64,000 nt of DNA, taken from positions 734-64,733 of the forward strand of contig CAZTFC010000003.1 in the NCBI GenBank assembly GCA_964612075.1, read 5' to 3'. Position 1 is the stretch's first letter; every line of letters starts with the position of its first letter. Below are positions 4,757-61,314 of this stretch, in pieces. Below the pieces are notes generated by a model, which made no database searches, was not told the DNA's origin, and worked only from the letters and a program-made list of their open reading frames with translations. Source of the stretch: an uncultured bacterium. GTDB lineage: Bacteria; Desulfobacterota; Deferrimicrobia; Deferrimicrobiales; Deferrimicrobiaceae. The position numbers and the translations under genes are program-made.

Positions 4757-5497
4757 ATGAGACGCACGGCACGATGGATCGGTTTTGCGGCGTTCGCGGC
4801 GTTCTTGGCCATGGCGGCCGGGTGCGCGGTCAACACGAGCTTCACCTACAAGCCGAACCCGCCCGCGGCGGGCGCGGCGAAGCTCCCGGCGAAGGTGGCG
4901 GTCCTGCCGTTCACCGACGGGACGGAGAACTTCACCAAGCGGGGATCGGCATTCAGCGACGGCCAGTACAACCTGGCGAAAGCCGGGATCTCGGGGAGCA
5001 TGGACGCCCTGACGCCGGAGCTCTGGGGGAAGGCCTTCGCCGACGACCTGGCGGCTTCCGGCAGCTTCCGGTCGGCCCGCTTCGTCTTCGCTCCCTCCGA
5101 GATCAGGGACGAGGGCTACTCCGTCGACGGCACGCTGAAGAAGGTCAATTTCGCGGCCACGTTCGACTACGCGAACGAGATCCTCGTCTCCTTCCGGGCC
5201 ACCAGGGTCTCCGATAAAAAGGTCGTCTGGGAAAAGGAGTCGGGCCGGGTCTGGAAGACCCCGAGGAACGTGTATGCCGGCTGCGGGATGGGGATCCAGT
5301 GCATGACCGACAAGATGCACGGCGACTGGAACAAGGAGATGGTCTCGATCTTCGCCGAGGCGCGGGCGGACCTCGTGGGGACGCTGGCGGGCCTTGCGGA
5401 AGGCGGGACCGCAAGCGGCCCCGCTCCGAAGGCCGCGGGTCAGGCCGCGGGAGAGTCCGTCGACCAGACGATCGACAAGATCCTGAAAGGGAAATGA
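4757..5497 (+). CDS. Lipoprotein, paralog 2 of 4
   Basis: RBS GGGAGG; lipobox MAAGC; KVAVLPFTDG; Cx5C; ends GESVDQTIDKILKGK. Confidence 0.85.
   Translation: MRRTARWIGFAAFAAFLAMAAGCAVNTSFTYKPNPPAAGAAKLPAKVAVLPFTDGTENFTKRGSAFSDGQYNLAKAGISGSMDALTPELWGKAFADDLAASGSFRSARFVFAPSEIRDEGYSVDGTLKKVNFAATFDYANEILVSFRATRVSDKKVVWEKESGRVWKTPRNVYAGCGMGIQCMTDKMHGDWNKEMVSIFAEARADLVGTLAGLAEGGTASGPAPKAAGQAAGESVDQTIDKILKGK
4996..5146 (+). repeat. 151-bp direct repeat, copy A (copy B at 5753-5903), inside lipoprotein paralogs 2 and 3
   Basis: Manual alignment: 149/151 identical, mismatches at 5021/5778 and 5092/5849. Confidence 0.9.
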
Positions 5498-11283: not shown

Positions 11284-14200
11284 ATGGCAAGGATCTCATC
11301 GACGGCCCCCTTCATGACCCTGGACGAAGCGGGGGAGGTCACGGGGATCAACGAGGCCTTCGAGCGGCTCCTCGGGTACGCGCAGGCCGATCTCGTTGGG
11401 CGCTCCCGCCTGCCGTTCCTTTCCCGGGGCCACGAGGAAACCCTCCGGGGCATGGTCCTGCAGGCGTTCCGGGGGGATATCCCGGAACCGCTCGATCTTC
11501 CCGCCACCTGCTCCGACGGCGCGGTGAAAGATATCCGCTGGAACGTCGCGCTCGTCCGGGACGAGGGCGAACCGGCTCGATGCGCGGTCGCGGTCTTCGG
11601 GAGCGAGACCGGCACCCGCCGCAGGAAGCGGGAGGGAGCCGCCCTCGGGGAGATCGAGGACCGGTACCGGGTCATTTTCGAGAATTCCGGGGTCGGCCTG
11701 ATGTTCACCGACGAGAAGACGGCGATCGTCCTCGTGAACCGGGAGTTCGAGAAGGCGACCGGCTATTCCAAGGAAGAGACGGAAGGAAGGATGAGCTGGA
11801 CGGCGCTGGTCGCCCGCGAGGACGACCTCGAGCGCATGAAGTCGTACAACCGGCTCCGCAGGATCGACCCGGAGTTCGCGCCGGCGGCGTACACCACGAA
11901 GATCCGGACCAAGGGCGGCGATATTCGGGACATGCTGCTCCGCGTGACGATGATCCCCGGGACCAAAAACAGCCTGGTCTCCTTCGTGGACATGACGGAG
12001 AGGAGGCTGGCGGAGGAAGCCATCCGCGAGCGCGAGGAGAAGTACCGTGCGCTCGTGGACAACATGCAGGACGTCCTATACCGCACCGACCTCGACGGGA
12101 ACCTCGTTTTCGTAAGCCCGTCGGCCGCCGCCGTGTTCGGTTACGGCTCCCCGGAGGAGATGATCGGGGTGAACGTCTCCACGGAGTTCTATTTCGAATC
12201 CGGGGGGAGGGAACCGCTGCTGGAGCGGCTGATGCGGGAAGGGAAGGTGACGAACTACGAGGAGACGCTGAAGCGCAGGGACGGAACCCCGGTGGAAGTC
12301 CAGATCAACAGCCACCTGTATTACGACAGGGACGGGAACGTCTCGGGGGTGGAGGGGATCCTGCGCGACGTCACCGAGAGGAAGCGGTCGGAGAAGCTGC
12401 TCCGGGAAAACGAGGAGCGGCTGCGCGGCATCACCAGGAACATCCCGGGCACCATCTTCCAGTTCTACGTCAGGGACACGGGCGAGTACGCCATGAGCTA
12501 CGTCAGCGAGCGGCTGACGGAGCTGCTCGGCGTCGAGGCCGAGATGGAAGCATTGTTCCCGACCTTCCTCTCCCTCATCCACAAGGAGGACAGGGAGCGG
12601 CTGCTCGCCTCCATCCGGAAGGCGGTGGAGTCGGCGGGACCCTGGAAATTCGAAGGGCGCCTCGGCCTGCCTTCGGGCAGGGAGATGTGGTTCGAGGGCT
12701 TCGCCACGCCGCGGAAGCACGGGGACCGATTGGTCTACGACGGCATCCTGCTCGACATCACGGCGCGCAAGCGGGCGGAGGAGGCGCTGGAGAAGCGCAT
12801 GGTCGCCCTGACCCGCCCCCTGGACGACACCCAGGACATCGCCTTCGAGGAGCTTTTCAACATCGAGGACATCCAGCGCCTGCAGGACGACTTCGCGCGG
12901 GCCACCGGCGTCGCGTCCATCATCACGCACACCGACGGGACCCCGATCACCGTGCCGAGCTGCTTCTCCCGGCTCTGCATCGGCATCATCCGGAAGACCG
13001 AAAAGGGGCGGGCCAACTGCTACAAGTCGGACGCCGCACTGGGCCGCCTTTCCAGGGAAGGGCCGACCGTTCGGCAGTGCATGAGCGGGGGGCTGTGGGA
13101 CGCGGGCGCCGGGATCTCCGTCGGCGGACGGCACATCGCCAACTGGCTGATCGGCCAGGTGCGCGACGAGACACAGACCGAGGAGAAGATGCGCGAATAC
13201 GCCCGGGAGATCGGGGTCGACGAGGAGGAGTTCCTCCGGGCGTTCCGGGAGGTGCCCGCCATGTCGCGCGAGCGGTTCGACCGGGTCGCGCGGGCCCTGT
13301 TCACGCTGGCGAACCAGCTCTCCACGCTGGCGTACCAGAACGTCCAGCAGGCGCGCTTCATCACGGAGCGCAGGAAGGCGGAGGAGGAGCGCCGCAAGCT
13401 CGAGGAGCGGCTGTTCCTCTCCGAGAAGATGAAGGCGATCGGCCAGCTCGCCGGCGGCGTCGCGCACGATTTCAACAACCTCCTGATGGGCATCCTCGGG
13501 AACGCCTCCCTGGTGCAGATGGAGTTCGATCCCTCGCACCCGAGCTACCAGCGGCTATCGCAGATCGAGGAGCACGTGAAGCGCGGCGCCAACCTGACGA
13601 GGCAGCTCCTCGGGTTCGCGCGGGGCGGGAAATACGAGGTCCGGGCCCTGTCCGTGAACGACCTGGTCCGCAGGAGCGCGCAGCTGTTCCTCGAAACGCG
13701 GAAGGGGATCGAGGCCGCGTTCCTGCTTCGGGACGACGTCCGCCCGGTGGAGGCGGACGCCGGGCAGATCGAGCAGGTGCTCCTCAACATCTTCATCAAC
13801 GCCGGCCACGCCATGCCCGGGGGCGGCTCCCTCGACATCCGGACGTCCAACGTGACGCTGTCGGAATCCGACGCCAGGGCCTTCGAGACGAAACCCGGGG
13901 AATACGTCAAGATCTCCGTCACGGACACGGGTACGGGGATGGACCGGGAGACCCTCTCGCGGATCTTCGACCCCTTCTTCACGACGAAATCGGAGCAGGG
14001 GGGGACCGGCCTCGGCCTGGCCTCGGCCTACGGGATCGTCCGGAACCACGGGGGAGCCATCAACGCGCACAGCGAGCCGGGGCGCGGCTCCACCTTCAAC
14101 ATCTATCTCCCGGCCTCCGGGAAGGCGCTCGAGAAGGAGACCGCCGCGAAGCCGGGGGACGAGCTTCTCCGCGGCAGCGGGAGGATCCTGCTGGTGGACG

Positions 14201-59074: not shown

Positions 59075-59893
59075 ATGCCATTTGCCGACCTGAACGGATT
59101 CCGCGCGTATTTCGAGGTGCACGGGGCCGGTTTTCCCCTGCTTCTGATCAACGGGTTGGGGAGCGACCACCTGGAGTGGCTGTTCCAGGTCCCGGCGTTC
59201 GAGCCGCACTTCCGGGTGGTGGTTTACGACCATTTCGGCACGGGGAAGAGCGACGCGCCGCCGGGGCCCTACACCACCGCGCGGATGGCCGACGACGCCG
59301 TCATCCTGCTGGAATCCTTGGGGATACGGCGGGCGCACGTCCTGGGGGTGTCTCTGGGAGGAATGATCGCCCAGGAGGTCGCGCTGCGACACCCGGCCCG
59401 GGTGGAATGCCTGGTGCTGGGGTGCACCGCCCCCGGGGGACCGCTGTCCCTGCGCCCCACCGAAGCGGCGATGGCGGCGTTTCTCGGCGCGGGCAAAGGG
59501 AACCCGGAAAGCGAATTGCGGCGGATGATGCCCTACCTGTACACGGAGACGTATATGAAGGAACGGCCGGAGGAAATAGACGCCTTCCTCCGGAGGAGGC
59601 TGGAAAACCGGACCGACCCGCTGGCGTTCGTTTCCCAGCTGTCCGCCGCCATGAGCCACGACGCGTCCGGCCGGCTCTCCCGGGTCCGGGCCAGGACGCT
59701 GGTCATCACGGGGGACGCCGACCGGCTGGTGCCGCCGGAAAACTCCGCCCGGATCGCCGAGCGGGTCCCGGGCGCCCGGCTGGTCGTTCTTCCCGGCGCT
59801 CCGCACCGTCTGTTCGCGGAGAACGCCGAAGCGTTCAACAGGGAAGTGCTGGAGTTCTTGACCGCAGAACCAAACCACCGAACCGGGACGTAG
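59075..59893 (+). CDS. Alpha/beta hydrolase
   Basis: LLLINGLG, YDHFGTGKS, GVSLGGMIA (nucleophile elbow), ITGDAD, APHRLF. Confidence 0.92.
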   Translation: MPFADLNGFRAYFEVHGAGFPLLLINGLGSDHLEWLFQVPAFEPHFRVVVYDHFGTGKSDAPPGPYTTARMADDAVILLESLGIRRAHVLGVSLGGMIAQEVALRHPARVECLVLGCTAPGGPLSLRPTEAAMAAFLGAGKGNPESELRRMMPYLYTETYMKERPEEIDAFLRRRLENRTDPLAFVSQLSAAMSHDASGRLSRVRARTLVITGDADRLVPPENSARIAERVPGARLVVLPGAPHRLFAENAEAFNREVLEFLTAEPNHRTGT

Positions 59894-60081
59894 ATGAGTT
59901 CTGCCGCAGTTTGGGGACAGAGATGGGGACCGCAGAACCGGGACGTAGATGAGAAGTCCAAAAGCCTGGAAGTCCGACTGCCTGATATGCAGGACTTCTC
60001 ATCTACGTCCCGGTTCTGCGGTCCTTCCGGTTCGTCCACCTCTGTCCCTGTTTTGCGGCAGAACTCATCTACGTCCCGGTT
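59881..60081. repeat. Nested-palindrome REPIN-like element 1
   Basis: Outer 28-bp perfect IR (59881-59908/60054-60081), inner 33-bp perfect IR (59927-59959/59992-60024), 32-nt loop; core GGGACGTAGATGAG x4. Confidence 0.88.
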
Positions 60082-60087
60082 TTGAGG

Positions 60088-60342
60088 TTACATGCCCCCC
60101 GCGTCGCGAAGGTCTTTCTCGAACCGGGCGGCGTCGAAGCCGTCCCCGGAGACCATCGTTCCCTCCACGTCAAGCGTAGGCACTTTCCGCATGCCGTTAT
60201 TGAGATTCATCACGATCTCGGCCGCCGCCGGGTTCTGTTCGATGTCGATTTCCTCGTATGCGATCCCGTGTTCCGCGAGGAACTTCTTGGTGGCCTTGCA
60301 GTCGCGGCACCATGGTGTGGTATACATGACGATTTTTTTCAT
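60088..60342 (-). CDS. Glutaredoxin/NrdH/mycoredoxin-like protein (84 aa)
   Basis: MKKIVMYTTPWCRDCKATKKFL...DIEQ...GMRKVPTL; RBS GGAG. Confidence 0.92.
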   Translation of the reverse strand: MKKIVMYTTPWCRDCKATKKFLAEHGIAYEEIDIEQNPAAAEIVMNLNNGMRKVPTLDVEGTMVSGDGFDAARFEKDLRDAGGM

Positions 60343-60360
60343 TTTTTTCTCCTGCGGATC

Positions 60361-60637
60361 GGGGACGTTGATGAGTTCTGACACAGATGAAGGACACTCT
60401 CGAAGGCCACGAAACGGGGATCGTAAAAGGGAAGACATAAAACCGCAAAAAAGAACCACAGAACCGGGACGTAGATGAGAAGTCACAAAAGCCTGGAGAC
60501 CTGACTTCCTGATATGCAGGACTTCTCATCTACGTCCCGGTTCTGTGGTTCTTCATGTTTGCCATCCCCGTTTCGTGGTCCTCTCACCTCTGTCCCTGAT
60601 TTGTGTCAGAACTCATCTACGTCCCGGTTCTGTGGTT
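60361..60637. repeat. Nested-palindrome REPIN-like element 2
   Basis: Inner 34-bp perfect IR (60451-60484/60520-60553), middle IR (60405-60421/60564-60580), outer IR (about 60362-60385/60602-60625, one mismatch); loop resembles that of element 1. Confidence 0.88.
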
Positions 60638-61314
60638 TCCGGAAGCGGGCTCCGCTTCCTGCGTTCCCCGACGGGCAGGATCGCGTCCTGATGGAACTGC
60701 ACGATGTAGTCCACCGCCGCCTCGGGGTCGTCCGTCTGGTGGAACATCTTCATGTCTTCCGGGGAGATCGTCCCCTGGCCCACCATCGAGCGCTCCATCC
60801 AGCGGACCAGCCCCTTCCAGTAGCTCTTTCCCATCAGGACGACCGGGAATTTCCGCGTCTTTCCGGTCTGGATCAGCGTGAGGGCCTCGAAGAACTCGTC
60901 CAGCGTGCCGAACCCTCCCGGCATGATGACGTAGCCCACGGCGTACTTGACGAACATCACCTTGCGGACGAAGAAATGCCGGAAGGAGAGCGAGACGTTC
61001 TGGTAGCGGTTCGGCATCTGCTCCTTCGGGAGCTGGATGTTCAGGCCGATGGAAACGCCGTTGCCGGCCCGCGCTCCCCGGTTGGCCGCCTCCATGATGC
61101 CCGGCCCCCCGCCGGAGATGACCGCGAACCCCCGCTTCACGAGCCCCTCCGCCACTTCCATGGTGCACCTGTACGACCAGTCGTCCTTCGCGGTGCGCGC
61201 GCTCCCGAAGATCGAGATGGCCGGACCGACGTCCTTGAGCTCCTCGAACCCTTCCACGAATTCGCTCATGATGCGGAACACCCGCCAGGTTTCGCCTCCG
61301 GCCAGCTCCTCCAT
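60613..61314 (-). CDS. LOG-family Rossmann-fold protein (TIGR00730-like)
   Basis: IFGSAR, SGGGPGIMEAANRGA, IGLNIQLPKEQ, FFVRKVMF, PGGFGTLDEFFE. Confidence 0.94.
   Translation of the reverse strand: MEELAGGETWRVFRIMSEFVEGFEELKDVGPAISIFGSARTAKDDWSYRCTMEVAEGLVKRGFAVISGGGPGIMEAANRGARAGNGVSIGLNIQLPKEQMPNRYQNVSLSFRHFFVRKVMFVKYAVGYVIMPGGFGTLDEFFEALTLIQTGKTRKFPVVLMGKSYWKGLVRWMERSMVGQGTISPEDMKMFHQTDDPEAAVDYIVQFHQDAILPVGERRKRSPLPETTEPGRR

What the first reader, a model, noticed from the sequence alone, without database searches (positions are those of the whole stretch)
59881..60637. Two nested-palindrome REPIN-like elements built from eight copies of GGGACGTAGATGAG
Seen: each element has outer IR, middle IR (GGGACAGAG/CTCTGTCCC in element 1), a perfect 33-34-bp inner IR and a conserved asymmetric loop (AAAAGCCTGGA..GAC.GCCTGATATGCA versus AAAAGCCTGGAGACCTGACTTCCTGATATGCA). 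GC is lower than in the flanks. Established: REP/REPIN elements are palindromic units mobilised in trans by HUH (RAYT) tyrosine transposases. Inference: a repeat family with a doubled hairpin-in-hairpin design that I do not recognise. The conserved non-palindromic loop may be a protein recognition or cleavage site.
Basis: partly seen in the sequence, partly recalled or inferred. Interest (0 to 1): 0.68.

Follow-up and report, generated by a model that had tools for sequence, protein, structure and literature searches.

The report
Nested hairpin repeats of a RAYT transposase
The two long nested palindromes flanking a small glutaredoxin gene are copies of a dispersed, non-coding repeat family. 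In close relatives the same repeat brackets a single-copy IS200-like (RAYT/TIRYT) tyrosine transposase gene, so this is a new, oddly layered example of a known kind of bacterial "junk" mobile DNA, not a new kind of system.

Summary
Seven exact copies and one 1-mismatch copy of GGGACGTAGATGAG lie in window 59885-60625. They build two long hairpins: element 1 at 59873-60089 and element 2 at 60357-60638.

The motif is the head of a repeat family with at least 14 loci in the related MAG 'bacterium UBA2219' (about 91% identical at the orthologous locus). There, and in three further relatives, inverted copies of the outer arm flank a roughly 290-aa Y1/HUH transposase at a conserved chromosomal site. 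Its motifs (NHFH, FQ, YIHLNP), its C-terminal DnaA-like HTH and the GGGGACAG motif in the arm place it in TnpA-Y1 subclass 2.1, also called TIRYT or RAYT Group 1.

Metagenome contigs that hold the window also hold this gene at single-copy depth.

The inner hairpin is a separate unit. It is absent from the same site in UBA2219 and in a window-like strain from an oil-field metagenome (a clean 111-bp difference, no target duplication). All 7 copies in UBA2219 sit inside outer-arm contexts.

Verdict: a REPIN-like, RAYT/TIRYT-associated repeat family with a nested variant architecture. Mobility and mechanism are inferred, not shown. Interest is moderate.

The parts
59075..59893 (+). Alpha/beta-hydrolase gene. 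Its last 10 codons (TAEPNHRTGT) and its stop codon (the TAG of GTAG) are supplied by the repeat.
   Evidence: ORF. Pfam Abhydrolase_1 2.3e-31. Orthologues end earlier..FLQG* in L003 and ..EFLTG* in L023.
59861..59884 (+). Two tandem copies of the 12-13-nt 5' unit (ACCGCAGAACC / AAACCACCGAACC) preceding the first head.
   Evidence: (D4, I16). The number of units differs between copies of the family (1-3).
59873..59926 (+). Element 1, outer arm A. It consists of the head GGGACGTAGATGAG, then TTCTGCCGCAGTTTG, then a second head-like 14-mer GGGGACAGAGATGG that matches GGGGWSAS.
   Evidence: (I2).
59926..60036 (.). Element 1, inner unit B (111 bp). It is absent from the orthologous site in UBA2219 and in an oil-field strain. 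It contains the perfect 33-bp arms 59927-59959 / 59992-60024, the 32-nt asymmetric core 59960-59991 and a 12-nt partial 5' unit at 60025-60036.
   Evidence: I5; joint 59925>60041 with CAAG between, in run X5. (no X5 contig over 60032-60059).
60036..60089 (-). Element 1, outer arm A' (inverted copy of A). It abuts and overlaps the stop codon of the glutaredoxin gene.
   Evidence: (I2).
60088..60342 (-). Glutaredoxin-family gene (84 aa) bracketed by the two elements. It is a resident gene, not cargo.
   Evidence: Pfam Glutaredoxin 1.8e-16. The gene sits in the same position in outgroups L021 and L023, which lack the elements.
60357..60396 (+). Element 2, outer arm A, with the head variant GGGACGTTGATGAG.
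   Evidence: (I4).
60402..60435 (+). Element 2, middle arm C. It is a decayed head-like layer (CCACGAAACGGGGATCGTAAAAGGGAAGA) that pairs with 60550-60583.
   Evidence: I10, 79%. The likeness to the inner-type head was read by eye.
60451..60553 (.). Element 2, inner unit B. It has perfect 34-bp arms 60451-60484 / 60520-60553 and a 35-nt core at 60485-60519.
   Evidence: (I3).
60550..60583 (-). Element 2, middle arm C'.
   Evidence: I10.
60585..60638 (-). Element 2, outer arm A'. Its head supplies the last codons (..EPGRR) and the TGA stop of the LOG gene.
   Evidence: (I1, I4).
60613..61314 (-). LOG-family (Lysine_decarbox) gene whose 3' end runs into element 2.
   Evidence: Pfam 8e-36. The C-terminal tail differs from outgroups L021 and L023.

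Best explanation
The two elements are non-autonomous, hairpin-forming repeats of a REPIN-like family. The family belongs to a single-copy, vertically inherited Y1 (HUH) tyrosine transposase of the TIRYT / TnpA-Y1 subclass 2.1 / RAYT Group 1 type.

The family has three parts:
- A 25-nt head: one to three 12-nt units ACCGCAGAACC followed by GGGACGTAGATGAG.
- An outer-arm tail (TTCT..GGGGACAGAGATG), which makes the terminal inverted repeat that also brackets the transposase gene.
- A 32-35-nt core that joins two inverted heads into a 'double-foot' inner hairpin.

Proposed mechanism (inferred by analogy with TnpA-REP and IS200/IS605): the enzyme binds the head on single-stranded DNA, cuts and rejoins near it, and moves units without a target duplication. 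Outer-arm dimers were laid down first at the 3' ends of genes. The inner hairpin was later inserted at the apex of such dimers, directly after the arm end GAGATG. Element 2 records two such rounds.

As a by-product the elements terminate reading frames, because the head carries TAG and TGA. They probably also act as transcript-end or intercistronic stem-loops.
For: SHOWN
- It is a repeat family. The head 19-mer hits 10 loci of UBA2219, with 45 heads catalogued in those loci and related loci. Further copies lie in metagenome contigs.
- Head depth is 10-50x the flank depth in runs that hold the window. Many different flanks appear as loose ends.
- The transposase gene is bracketed by inverted outer arms in UBA2219 (L008 2284+ / 3379-), L017, L101-L104 and L105. 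In the more distant WY2.bin79 lineage the arm is a diverged head, GGGGACGTAGCTAC.
- The gene is always at the same site, between an epimerase gene and a TrmI-like methyltransferase gene.
- Protein evidence: Pfam Y1_Tnp 4.9e-9; NCBIfam REP_Tyr_transpos 65 bits; the only PDB sequence hit is 4ER8 TnpA-REP, aligning HUH and YIxxNP. The AlphaFold model (pLDDT 84) has 4ER8 as top fold hit (E 6.6e-7, TMt 0.73) and a C-terminal match to the DnaA DNA-binding domain (rmsd 1.1 A over 66 columns).
- The signature NHFH / FQ / YIHLNP equals the subclass 2.1 signature in Table 1 of PMC6006769.
- The arm motif GGGGACAG fits the TIRYT inverted-repeat consensus GGGGWSAS (PMC3733652).
- The transposase gene is covered at about 91% identity, at the same depth as the window's single-copy flanks, in X1, X5, X7 and X12.
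- The inner unit is a separate gain or loss. There is a 111-bp indel at the apex of element 1 against UBA2219. The same empty junction (GATG-CAAG-TCTG) occurs on a window-type arm in run X5. Runs X1, X3, X4, X7, X12 and X14 carry the filled form. There is no target duplication.
- The inner-specific 19-mer occurs only inside outer-arm contexts (7 of 7 loci).
- In five UBA2219 or window copies, one side of the inner unit lies 2-4 nt after GAGATG.
- Hairpin arms co-vary: 33 pairs, 97.3% paired, 4 pairs with changes on both sides.
- Outgroup L023 has neither element at the syntenic sites.

INFERRED
- Cleavage at the head, a single-stranded intermediate, the direction of the polymorphism (insertion rather than loss), and any role for transcripts.
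Against: - No transposase gene lies in the 64-kb window itself. Its presence in the window organism rests on depth matching in metagenome contigs.
- NCBIfam's REP_Tyr_transpos score (65.4) is below the curated cut-off of 80.
- Quentin et al. found no REP-like repeats next to subclass 2.1 genes (PMC6006769), so activity of this subclass on repeats is undocumented.
- The outer arms alone do not fold better than shuffles, except the arm left of the transposase gene (z -2.25). The classical 'GTAG at the foot of a hairpin' layout is therefore not met for them.
- The empty and filled alleles of element 1 also differ by two substitutions next to the junction (CAAG against CACC), so the event was not perfectly clean, or it is old.
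- The family is small (tens of heads per genome), far below classical REPs.
- The metagenome evidence comes from assembled contigs, not raw reads.
Confidence: 0.75

Rival explanations
1. The nesting does not come from insertion. The composite (outer arm, inner hairpin, outer arm) is the ancestral unit, and the simple outer dimers are derived. On this view the long perfect inner palindrome is deleted by replication slippage or SbcCD-type processing, and layers grow by hairpin-templated (fold-back) synthesis.
For: Long perfect palindromes are unstable in bacteria (established knowledge). UBA2219 element 2 has lost 87 bp between two direct copies of the head, which shows that deletions between family repeats do occur. 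7 of about 10 dimers in UBA2219 carry the inner unit, as expected if the composite were the norm. The perfect 33-34-bp arms fit templated copying.
Against: The empty allele has the same junction, including the tetranucleotide CAAG, in two lineages about 9% apart (L003 and the X5 strain). CAAG cannot be produced by a simple deletion from the filled sequence, which has CACC. Shared ancestry of the empty state is therefore more parsimonious. The sequence between outer arm and inner unit differs in length and content in every copy, so composites were not copied as whole units. The core is 85-95% conserved between non-orthologous copies, so it spread as a unit.
Confidence: 0.15
2. The elements are primarily host regulatory structures: bidirectional terminators or mRNA-stabilising stem-loops, or a small RNA. 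On this view they are kept by selection, and the link to the transposase gene is incidental.
For: All copies lie at gene ends or between genes. The reverse complement of the 5' units gives T-rich runs after the hairpin (GGTTTTG, GGTTCTGCGGTTTT). Low-depth metatranscriptome contigs cover the glutaredoxin gene and run into both elements (X25: 59996-60335 and 60321-60484). REPs are known to have such roles (PMC3733652 abstract).
Against: No Rfam family matches. The simple scan finds no terminator or promoter in the elements. The arms are perfect Watson-Crick complements on both strands, and the two orientations of the core are equally used. That points to a DNA-level palindrome, not a strand-specific RNA. 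Outgroups with the same genes do without the elements. This reading does not explain why the same repeat brackets the transposase gene in every lineage. It is compatible with the main explanation as a secondary effect.
Confidence: 0.07
3. The elements are miniature inverted-repeat elements (MITEs) of a classical DDE insertion sequence whose ends happen to match the outer arms.
For: Size (217 and 282 bp), terminal inverted repeats and non-coding content resemble MITEs.
Against: There is no target-site duplication at the 111-bp indel or at the outer ends. No DDE transposase lies next to any copy in the loci read. The only gene bracketed by the arms is the Y1/HUH gene, in five independent contigs.
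Confidence: 0.03

Closest known systems
TIRtrons / TIRYT-associated TIR repeat families (Di Nocera et al. 2013, PMC3733652). These correspond to TnpA-Y1 subclass 2.1 (Quentin et al. 2018, PMC6006769) and RAYT Group 1 (Bertels et al. 2017, PMC5581495).
   Same: Long Y1 transposase with NH[YF]H / FQ / Y[IV]HLNP motifs and a C-terminal DnaA-like HTH. The gene is bracketed by long inverted repeats that carry GGGGWSAS. The same repeats are dispersed at moderate copy number, often as dimers. Group 1 flanking 16-mers occur about 12 times per replicon, which matches the small family seen here.
   Different: Here the repeat also carries a GTAG-containing head with tandem 12-nt units. A second unit type, the inner double-foot hairpin, shares only the head. 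Units are nested in up to three layers. There is a strain-level presence/absence difference. Quentin et al. reported no REP-like repeats for this subclass.
REPIN-RAYT systems of Pseudomonas and REP/BIME-TnpA-REP of E. coli (Bertels & Rainey 2011; Ton-Hoang et al. 2012; Messing et al. 2012, PDB 4ER8).
   Same: Two inverted repeat copies form a long hairpin. The arms co-vary. The elements are extragenic and lie at gene ends. The flanked HUH/Y1 gene is single-copy and vertically inherited. A GTAG motif is present. There are left-arm and right-arm sequence variants, as with the Y and Z REPs of BIMEs.
   Different: The transposase subclass differs (2.1, not 2.2 or 2.5). The arms are not self-folding REPs. 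GTAG is not at the foot of a REP hairpin. Copy number is tens, not hundreds. The higher-order arrangements I found described in the one paper searched (PMC3337134) are tandem or co-localised, not nested.
'Double-foot' REPs of subclass 2.4 (Quentin et al. 2018).
   Same: The inner unit is a single hairpin with GTAG on the 5' side and CTAC on the 3' side. This is the layout those authors suggest arises from a dimer by central deletion.
   Different: The cognate enzyme is of a different subclass. Here the GTAG lies inside the paired stem, and the hairpin has a conserved 32-35-nt asymmetric core.
IS200/IS605 insertion sequences and their palindrome-associated miniature derivatives.
   Same: The Y1/HUH fold (fold hits to IS608 and ISDra2 TnpA). 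There is no target duplication. Hairpin-forming ends and single-stranded DNA logic are plausible.
   Different: The gene is single-copy at a fixed chromosomal site, there is no tnpB, and the arms are symmetric inverted repeats rather than distinct left and right subterminal hairpins.

Membership tests
REPIN/REP-RAYT system | Short repeat, multi-copy and extragenic in the genome. | tested here: met
   At least 14 loci and 45 heads in UBA2219 and relatives, all at gene ends or between genes. Head depth is 10-50x flank depth in runs that hold the window.
REPIN/REP-RAYT system | Two copies in inverted orientation forming a hairpin, with the arms co-varying. | tested here: met
   For the inner hairpin, 97.3% of cells are paired and 4 pairs have compensatory changes.
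REPIN/REP-RAYT system | Each REP is itself an imperfect palindrome with 5' GT[AG]G at or within 1-2 nt of its foot. | tested here: inconclusive
   GTAG is present in every head. However, single outer arms do not fold better than shuffles, except the arm left of the transposase gene (z -2.25). In the inner unit, GTAG lies inside the stem.
REPIN/REP-RAYT system | A Y1 transposase gene flanked by the same repeats in inverted orientation. | tested here: met
   L008, L017, L101-L105 and L110. It is not in the window itself. For the window organism it is inferred from equal depth.
REPIN/REP-RAYT system | HUH motif and catalytic Tyr in a Y---NP context. | tested here: met
   NHFH and YIHLNP align to EHMH and YIYINP of 4ER8. 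Both are invariant in 27 homologues. The top fold hit is 4ER8.
REPIN/REP-RAYT system | Transposase-dependent cleavage or mobility of the repeat. | not testable with these tools
   Only indirect evidence: the 111-bp presence/absence difference between near-identical strains.
TIRYT / TnpA-Y1 subclass 2.1 | Sequence signature NH[YF]H, FQ, Y[IV]HLNP. | tested here: met
   Sequence printed, compared with Table 1 of PMC6006769.
TIRYT / TnpA-Y1 subclass 2.1 | Long protein with a C-terminal helix-turn-helix (DnaA_C-like) extension. | tested here: met
   286-295 aa. Pfam finds nothing in the tail. The model's C-terminal helices match the M. tuberculosis DnaA DNA-binding domain, 66 columns at rmsd 1.1 A, probability 1.00.
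TIRYT / TnpA-Y1 subclass 2.1 | Gene flanked by long terminal inverted repeats sharing GGGGWSAS. | tested here: met
   The right arm is GGGGACAG in L008, L101 and L105. The window arm has it at 59913. The left arm next to the gene reads CGGGACAC, one mismatch.
MITE of a DDE insertion sequence | Target-site duplication and a parent insertion sequence with matching ends. | tested here: not met
   No duplication at the indel or at the outer ends. No such insertion sequence lies in any locus read.

The most novel reading that the evidence does not exclude
The inner 'double-foot' hairpin may be a currently active, target-specific mobile unit. On this reading a subclass 2.1 (TIRYT) Y1 enzyme inserts it into the single-stranded apex of its own inverted-repeat dimers, just after GAGATG, so that hairpins grow in layers like a Russian doll. 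No mobile substrate or activity has been shown for this enzyme class. The empty and filled alleles in natural strains would then give the exact 111-nt transposed segment and both junctions.
Probability: 0.35. Interest if true: 0.6.

Novelty: new variant of a known kind. Interest (0 to 1): 0.4.

Why it matters
How RAYT-type domesticated transposases move or maintain their repeats is still unresolved. For the largest long-tailed branch (subclass 2.1 / TIRYT / Group 1), even the association with a repeat family is disputed in the literature.

This locus offers three things in an uncultured wastewater/digester lineage:
- A clear case of that branch paired with a dispersed family.
- A head motif (GGGACGTAG) that stays constant while the rest of the repeat and the enzyme diverge to 46% identity.
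- A natural empty/filled pair that defines one transposed unit to the base.

That is enough to design a direct in vitro cleavage and strand-transfer test. Practically, the elements rewrite the C-termini and stop codons of neighbouring genes and break short-read assemblies at these sites.

Tried and rejected
- Rfam, gathering thresholds, whole window: no family.
- tblastn of the transposase against the window: nothing. The cognate gene is outside the 64 kb.
- Pfam on the C-terminal tail at E<=10: nothing. The HTH was seen only by fold comparison.
- Simple promoter and terminator scan: no site inside the elements. The scan cannot see hairpins with long loops.
- Classical REP reading of the outer arm (GTAG plus its own hairpin): folding single arms gave no signal for the window arms, so I treat them as inverted repeats.
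- Idea that the two elements plus the glutaredoxin gene form a composite transposon: rejected, because the gene is in the same place in outgroups without the elements.
- Idea that only the 32-nt core is the mobile piece inserted between two abutting heads: rejected, because the polymorphism removes heads and core together.
- Integron attC sites or a CRISPR array: rejected on size, lack of regular spacing and the transposase link.
L008 was used instead at lower stringency.
- Metatranscriptome contigs were too shallow (depth 2-6) and unstranded to map transcript ends.
- The extra 2-mismatch motif hits at 11295, 46482 and 56874 are chance.
Full report
1. WHAT IS THERE

The 14-mer GGGACGTAGATGAG occurs seven times exactly and once with one mismatch between 59885 and 60625. 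Shuffles of the window give 0.47 hits even at two mismatches. The copies form two inverted-repeat systems.

Element 1 (59873-60089):
- 54-nt outer arms, 83% complementary.
- A perfect 33-bp inner repeat.
- A 32-nt asymmetric centre.

Element 2 (60357-60638):
- 40-nt outer arms.
- An additional 34-nt middle pair (79% complementary).
- A perfect 34-bp inner repeat.
- A 35-nt centre.

Each element folds as single-stranded DNA into one continuous hairpin (-95 and -93 kcal/mol, z -18 and -14). GC drops to 0.48-0.57.

The elements sit between three ordinary genes:
- An alpha/beta hydrolase (59075-59893, +).
- A glutaredoxin (60088-60342, -).
- A LOG-family protein (60613-61314, -).

The hydrolase and LOG reading frames run into the repeat and stop at the TAG and TGA of the head. 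The glutaredoxin stop codon overlaps the end of element 1.

No other copy of any family motif lies in the 64 kb. No Rfam family matches.

2. IT IS A DISPERSED FAMILY

A 19-mer of the head found 15 loci among GTDB species representatives. Ten of them are on seven contigs of one MAG, 'bacterium UBA2219'.

One of these loci (L003) is the orthologue of the window locus at about 91% identity. The window therefore comes from a sister species. Its LOG protein is 73-76% identical to those of a Candidatus Deferrimicrobium MAG and a 'Deltaproteobacteria' MAG. It is found in wastewater, digester, biogas and oil-field metagenomes.

Cataloguing all heads gives this anatomy:
- Head: one to three tandem 12-13-nt units (G)ACCGCAGAACC, followed by GGGACGT[A/T]GATGAG.
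- Outer arm (A): the head, then TTCT, then 10-12 variable nucleotides, then GGGGACAGAGATG(R). The last 14 nucleotides are a diverged direct copy of the head 14-mer. Left and right arms differ systematically in the variable part.
- Inner unit (B): the head, then AAGTC, then the conserved core, then GACTT, then the inverted head.

Arms occur alone, as dimers with 4-45-nt spacers, and as dimers that enclose a B unit.

The B-specific 19-mer occurs in only seven loci. All are in UBA2219, and all lie in outer-arm contexts.

In metagenome runs that hold the window, head-containing contigs sum to 10-50 times the single-copy depth. They continue into many different flanks. The window organism therefore has the family too.

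3. THE COGNATE GENE

In UBA2219 a 295-aa ORF (L008 2422-3309) is bracketed by inverted outer arms at 2284(+) and 3379(-). Evidence on the protein:
- It matches Pfam Y1_Tnp (4.9e-9).
- It matches NCBIfam REP_Tyr_transpos below the cut-off (65 against 80 bits).
- Its only PDB sequence relative is E. coli TnpA-REP (4ER8). The alignment covers HUH (NHFH) and the catalytic-Tyr motif YIHLNP.
- It has more than 7,600 homologues, many labelled RayT by JGI.

The same gene lies at the same site, between an epimerase and a TrmI-like methyltransferase, bracketed by the same arms, in several relatives:
- L017, 82% nucleotide identity.
- L101-L104, 87% amino-acid identity.
- L105, 79% amino-acid identity. 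There all heads read GTTG instead of GTAG.

In the more distant WY2.bin79 lineage the gene (46% amino-acid identity) is again behind the epimerase. It is bracketed by inverted heads of that lineage's own family, CAACAATAGGGGACGTAGCTAC. That family is also dispersed as hairpin dimers. Only GGGACGTAG and the following TTCTCCCGC are shared between the two families.

The window itself has no such gene. However, contigs of X1, X5, X7 and X12 cover the UBA2219 gene at about 91% identity. Their depths (about 32-36, 10, 4.5 and 3-6) equal those of the window's unique flanks in the same runs (31, 11.5, 6.3, 3.6). The flanking heads show 12-19-fold peaks.

4. WHICH KIND OF Y1 ENZYME

The motifs NHFH, FQ and YIHLNP are the signature of TnpA-Y1 subclass 2.1, which is Bertels' Group 1, in Table 1 of Quentin et al. 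2018 (PMC6006769). That subclass is described there as follows:
- Long proteins with a C-terminal DnaA_C-like HTH.
- Prevalent in epsilon-, beta- and delta-proteobacteria.
- Without detectable REPs.
- Probably identical to the TIRYTs of Di Nocera et al. 2013 (PMC3733652).

The TIRYT genes are bracketed by long inverted repeats sharing GGGGWSAS. Those repeats form moderately abundant families, often as dimers.

The evidence here agrees with that placement:
- The outer arm has GGGGACAG.
- An AlphaFold model of the 87%-identical P0001 (pLDDT 84) has 4ER8 as its best fold match, followed by the IS608 and ISDra2 transposases.
- Its C-terminal helices superpose on the DnaA DNA-binding domain at 1.1 A.
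- Single outer arms do not fold better than shuffles, which fits 'inverted repeat' better than 'REP'.

5. THE INNER HAIRPIN IS A SEPARATE UNIT

At the orthologous site UBA2219 has only the outer dimer. The window has an extra 111 bp (59926-60036) between ..GAGATG and CA..TCTGTCCC, with no duplication of flanking bases.

Allele distribution in the metagenome runs:
- Oil-field run X5: a 98-nt contig joins a window-type outer arm (no differences over 59873-59925, where UBA2219 differs at four positions) through the same CAAG to the other arm. No X5 contig covers the window-specific junction 60032-60059.
- X1, X3, X4, X7, X12 and X14 carry the filled form.

The empty junction is shared by two lineages about 9% apart, and it cannot be made by simple deletion from the filled sequence. 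I therefore read the filled state as derived, that is, an insertion. This is an inference.

Further support for a separate unit:
- In five composites one side of B follows the arm end GAGATG after 2-4 nt. The other side is separated by 12-36 nt that look like decayed 12-nt units.
- The core is used in both orientations.
- The core is 85-95% conserved between non-orthologous copies, and the arms co-vary.
- Element 2's middle pair looks like a decayed B-type head (GGGGATCGTAAAAGGGAAGA against GGGACGTAGATGAGAAGTC). This suggests an older B into whose centre a younger B was placed.

Deletion between family repeats also happens. UBA2219 element 2 lacks the 87 bp between two direct head copies.

6. 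EMPTY SITES FURTHER OUT

Two outgroups keep the hydrolase, glutaredoxin and LOG gene order.
- L023 has no element at either junction, and its convergent stop codons overlap.
- L021 has none at the glutaredoxin/LOG junction. At the hydrolase/glutaredoxin junction it carries a hairpin of its own lineage's family.

The elements are therefore later additions to a stable gene arrangement, and gene ends are preferred landing places.

7. MECHANISM

Shown: the family, the bracketed HUH/Y1 gene, the layered anatomy, the indel without duplication, and the co-varying arms.

Inferred by analogy with TnpA-REP and IS200/IS605: GTAG acts as a guide-like element 5' of the hairpin, and cutting and joining take place on single-stranded DNA (PMC8266576). 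On this model:
- The enzyme recognises the head.
- Hairpin apices and lagging-strand templates offer single-stranded targets.
- Repeated insertion at apices gives the nesting.

The conserved loop is not needed for this model. Its conservation is explained by recent common descent of the B copies. A role for the loop is neither supported nor excluded.

Secondary effects are likely. The elements create new stop codons and C-terminal tails. They may also affect transcript ends, because low-depth metatranscriptome contigs run from the glutaredoxin gene into both elements (weak evidence).

8. NOVELTY AND SCORE

The kind of system, RAYT/TIRYT-associated palindromic repeats, is known. The following are not described in the papers I could read:
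- The combination of a GTAG-containing head with tandem 12-nt units.
- A second unit type that shares only the head.
- Nesting in up to three layers.
- A strain-level gain or loss for a subclass said to lack repeats.

I rate this a new variant of a known kind. Interest is moderate (0.4).

Noticed in passing
window 59861-59893 and 60613-60640; L008 2270-2296: The repeat heads overwrite gene 3' ends. The hydrolase ends ..EFLTAEPNHRTGT*, against ..FLQG* and ..EFLTG* in relatives. LOG ends ..PETTEPGRR*. The epimerase next to the transposase gene ends ..FRTAEPGRR*. The head carries stop codons in two of its three frames (TAG, TGA).
   Followed up: partly
L021 about 4982-5109 (also fetched as L106 4255-4335); L107 5213-5293: The outgroup WY5.bin26 has, at the same hydrolase/glutaredoxin junction as window element 1, a hairpin of its own lineage-specific family (head CAACAATAGGGGACGTAGCTAC). 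Either the same intergenic site was hit independently, or an old element was kept matched to its family.
   Followed up: partly
L008 2422-3309; L017; L101 4001-4861; L105 10001-10978; L110 3110-3964: The transposase gene keeps one chromosomal position, between an NAD-dependent epimerase and a TrmI-like tRNA methyltransferase. This holds across relatives from 87% down to 46% protein identity. It behaves like a vertically inherited resident gene, not an insertion sequence.
   Followed up: yes
heads, for example L105 8870-8910, L005 about 5198-5225, L017 40-82: The 12-13-nt unit (G)ACCGCAGAACC is tandemly repeated one to three times 5' of heads, with copy number differing between loci. Decayed arrays of it seem to make up the variable 'linkers' inside composites. 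Slippage and repeated enzyme action cannot be told apart here.
   Followed up: partly
L018 about 40-60; L019 about 740-760; L016: In some metagenome contigs the inner end of a single outer arm (..GGGACAGACATG) supplies or abuts the ATG of the downstream ORF (MLRTMLKCKIHR..). From memory this resembles the start of aspartate 1-decarboxylase. This was not tested.
   Followed up: no
window 59996-60484: Sludge metatranscriptome contigs (run X25, depth 4-6) cover the glutaredoxin gene and extend into both flanking elements. LOG and glutaredoxin are on the same strand, so element 2 may be intercistronic. The data are unstranded contigs and may include DNA.
   Followed up: partly
window 60938-60977: A 40-nt stretch inside the LOG gene attracts high-depth contigs with unrelated continuations in every run examined. 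It looks like cross-matching of a conserved LOG-family motif from other organisms, and it is unrelated to the repeats.
   Followed up: no
L003 7658-7830 against window 60357-60638: UBA2219's copy of element 2 has lost 87 bp between two direct copies of the head, removing the right middle and outer arms, and a further 16 bp in the left middle arm. The layered hairpins therefore decay by deletion between their own repeats.
   Followed up: yes
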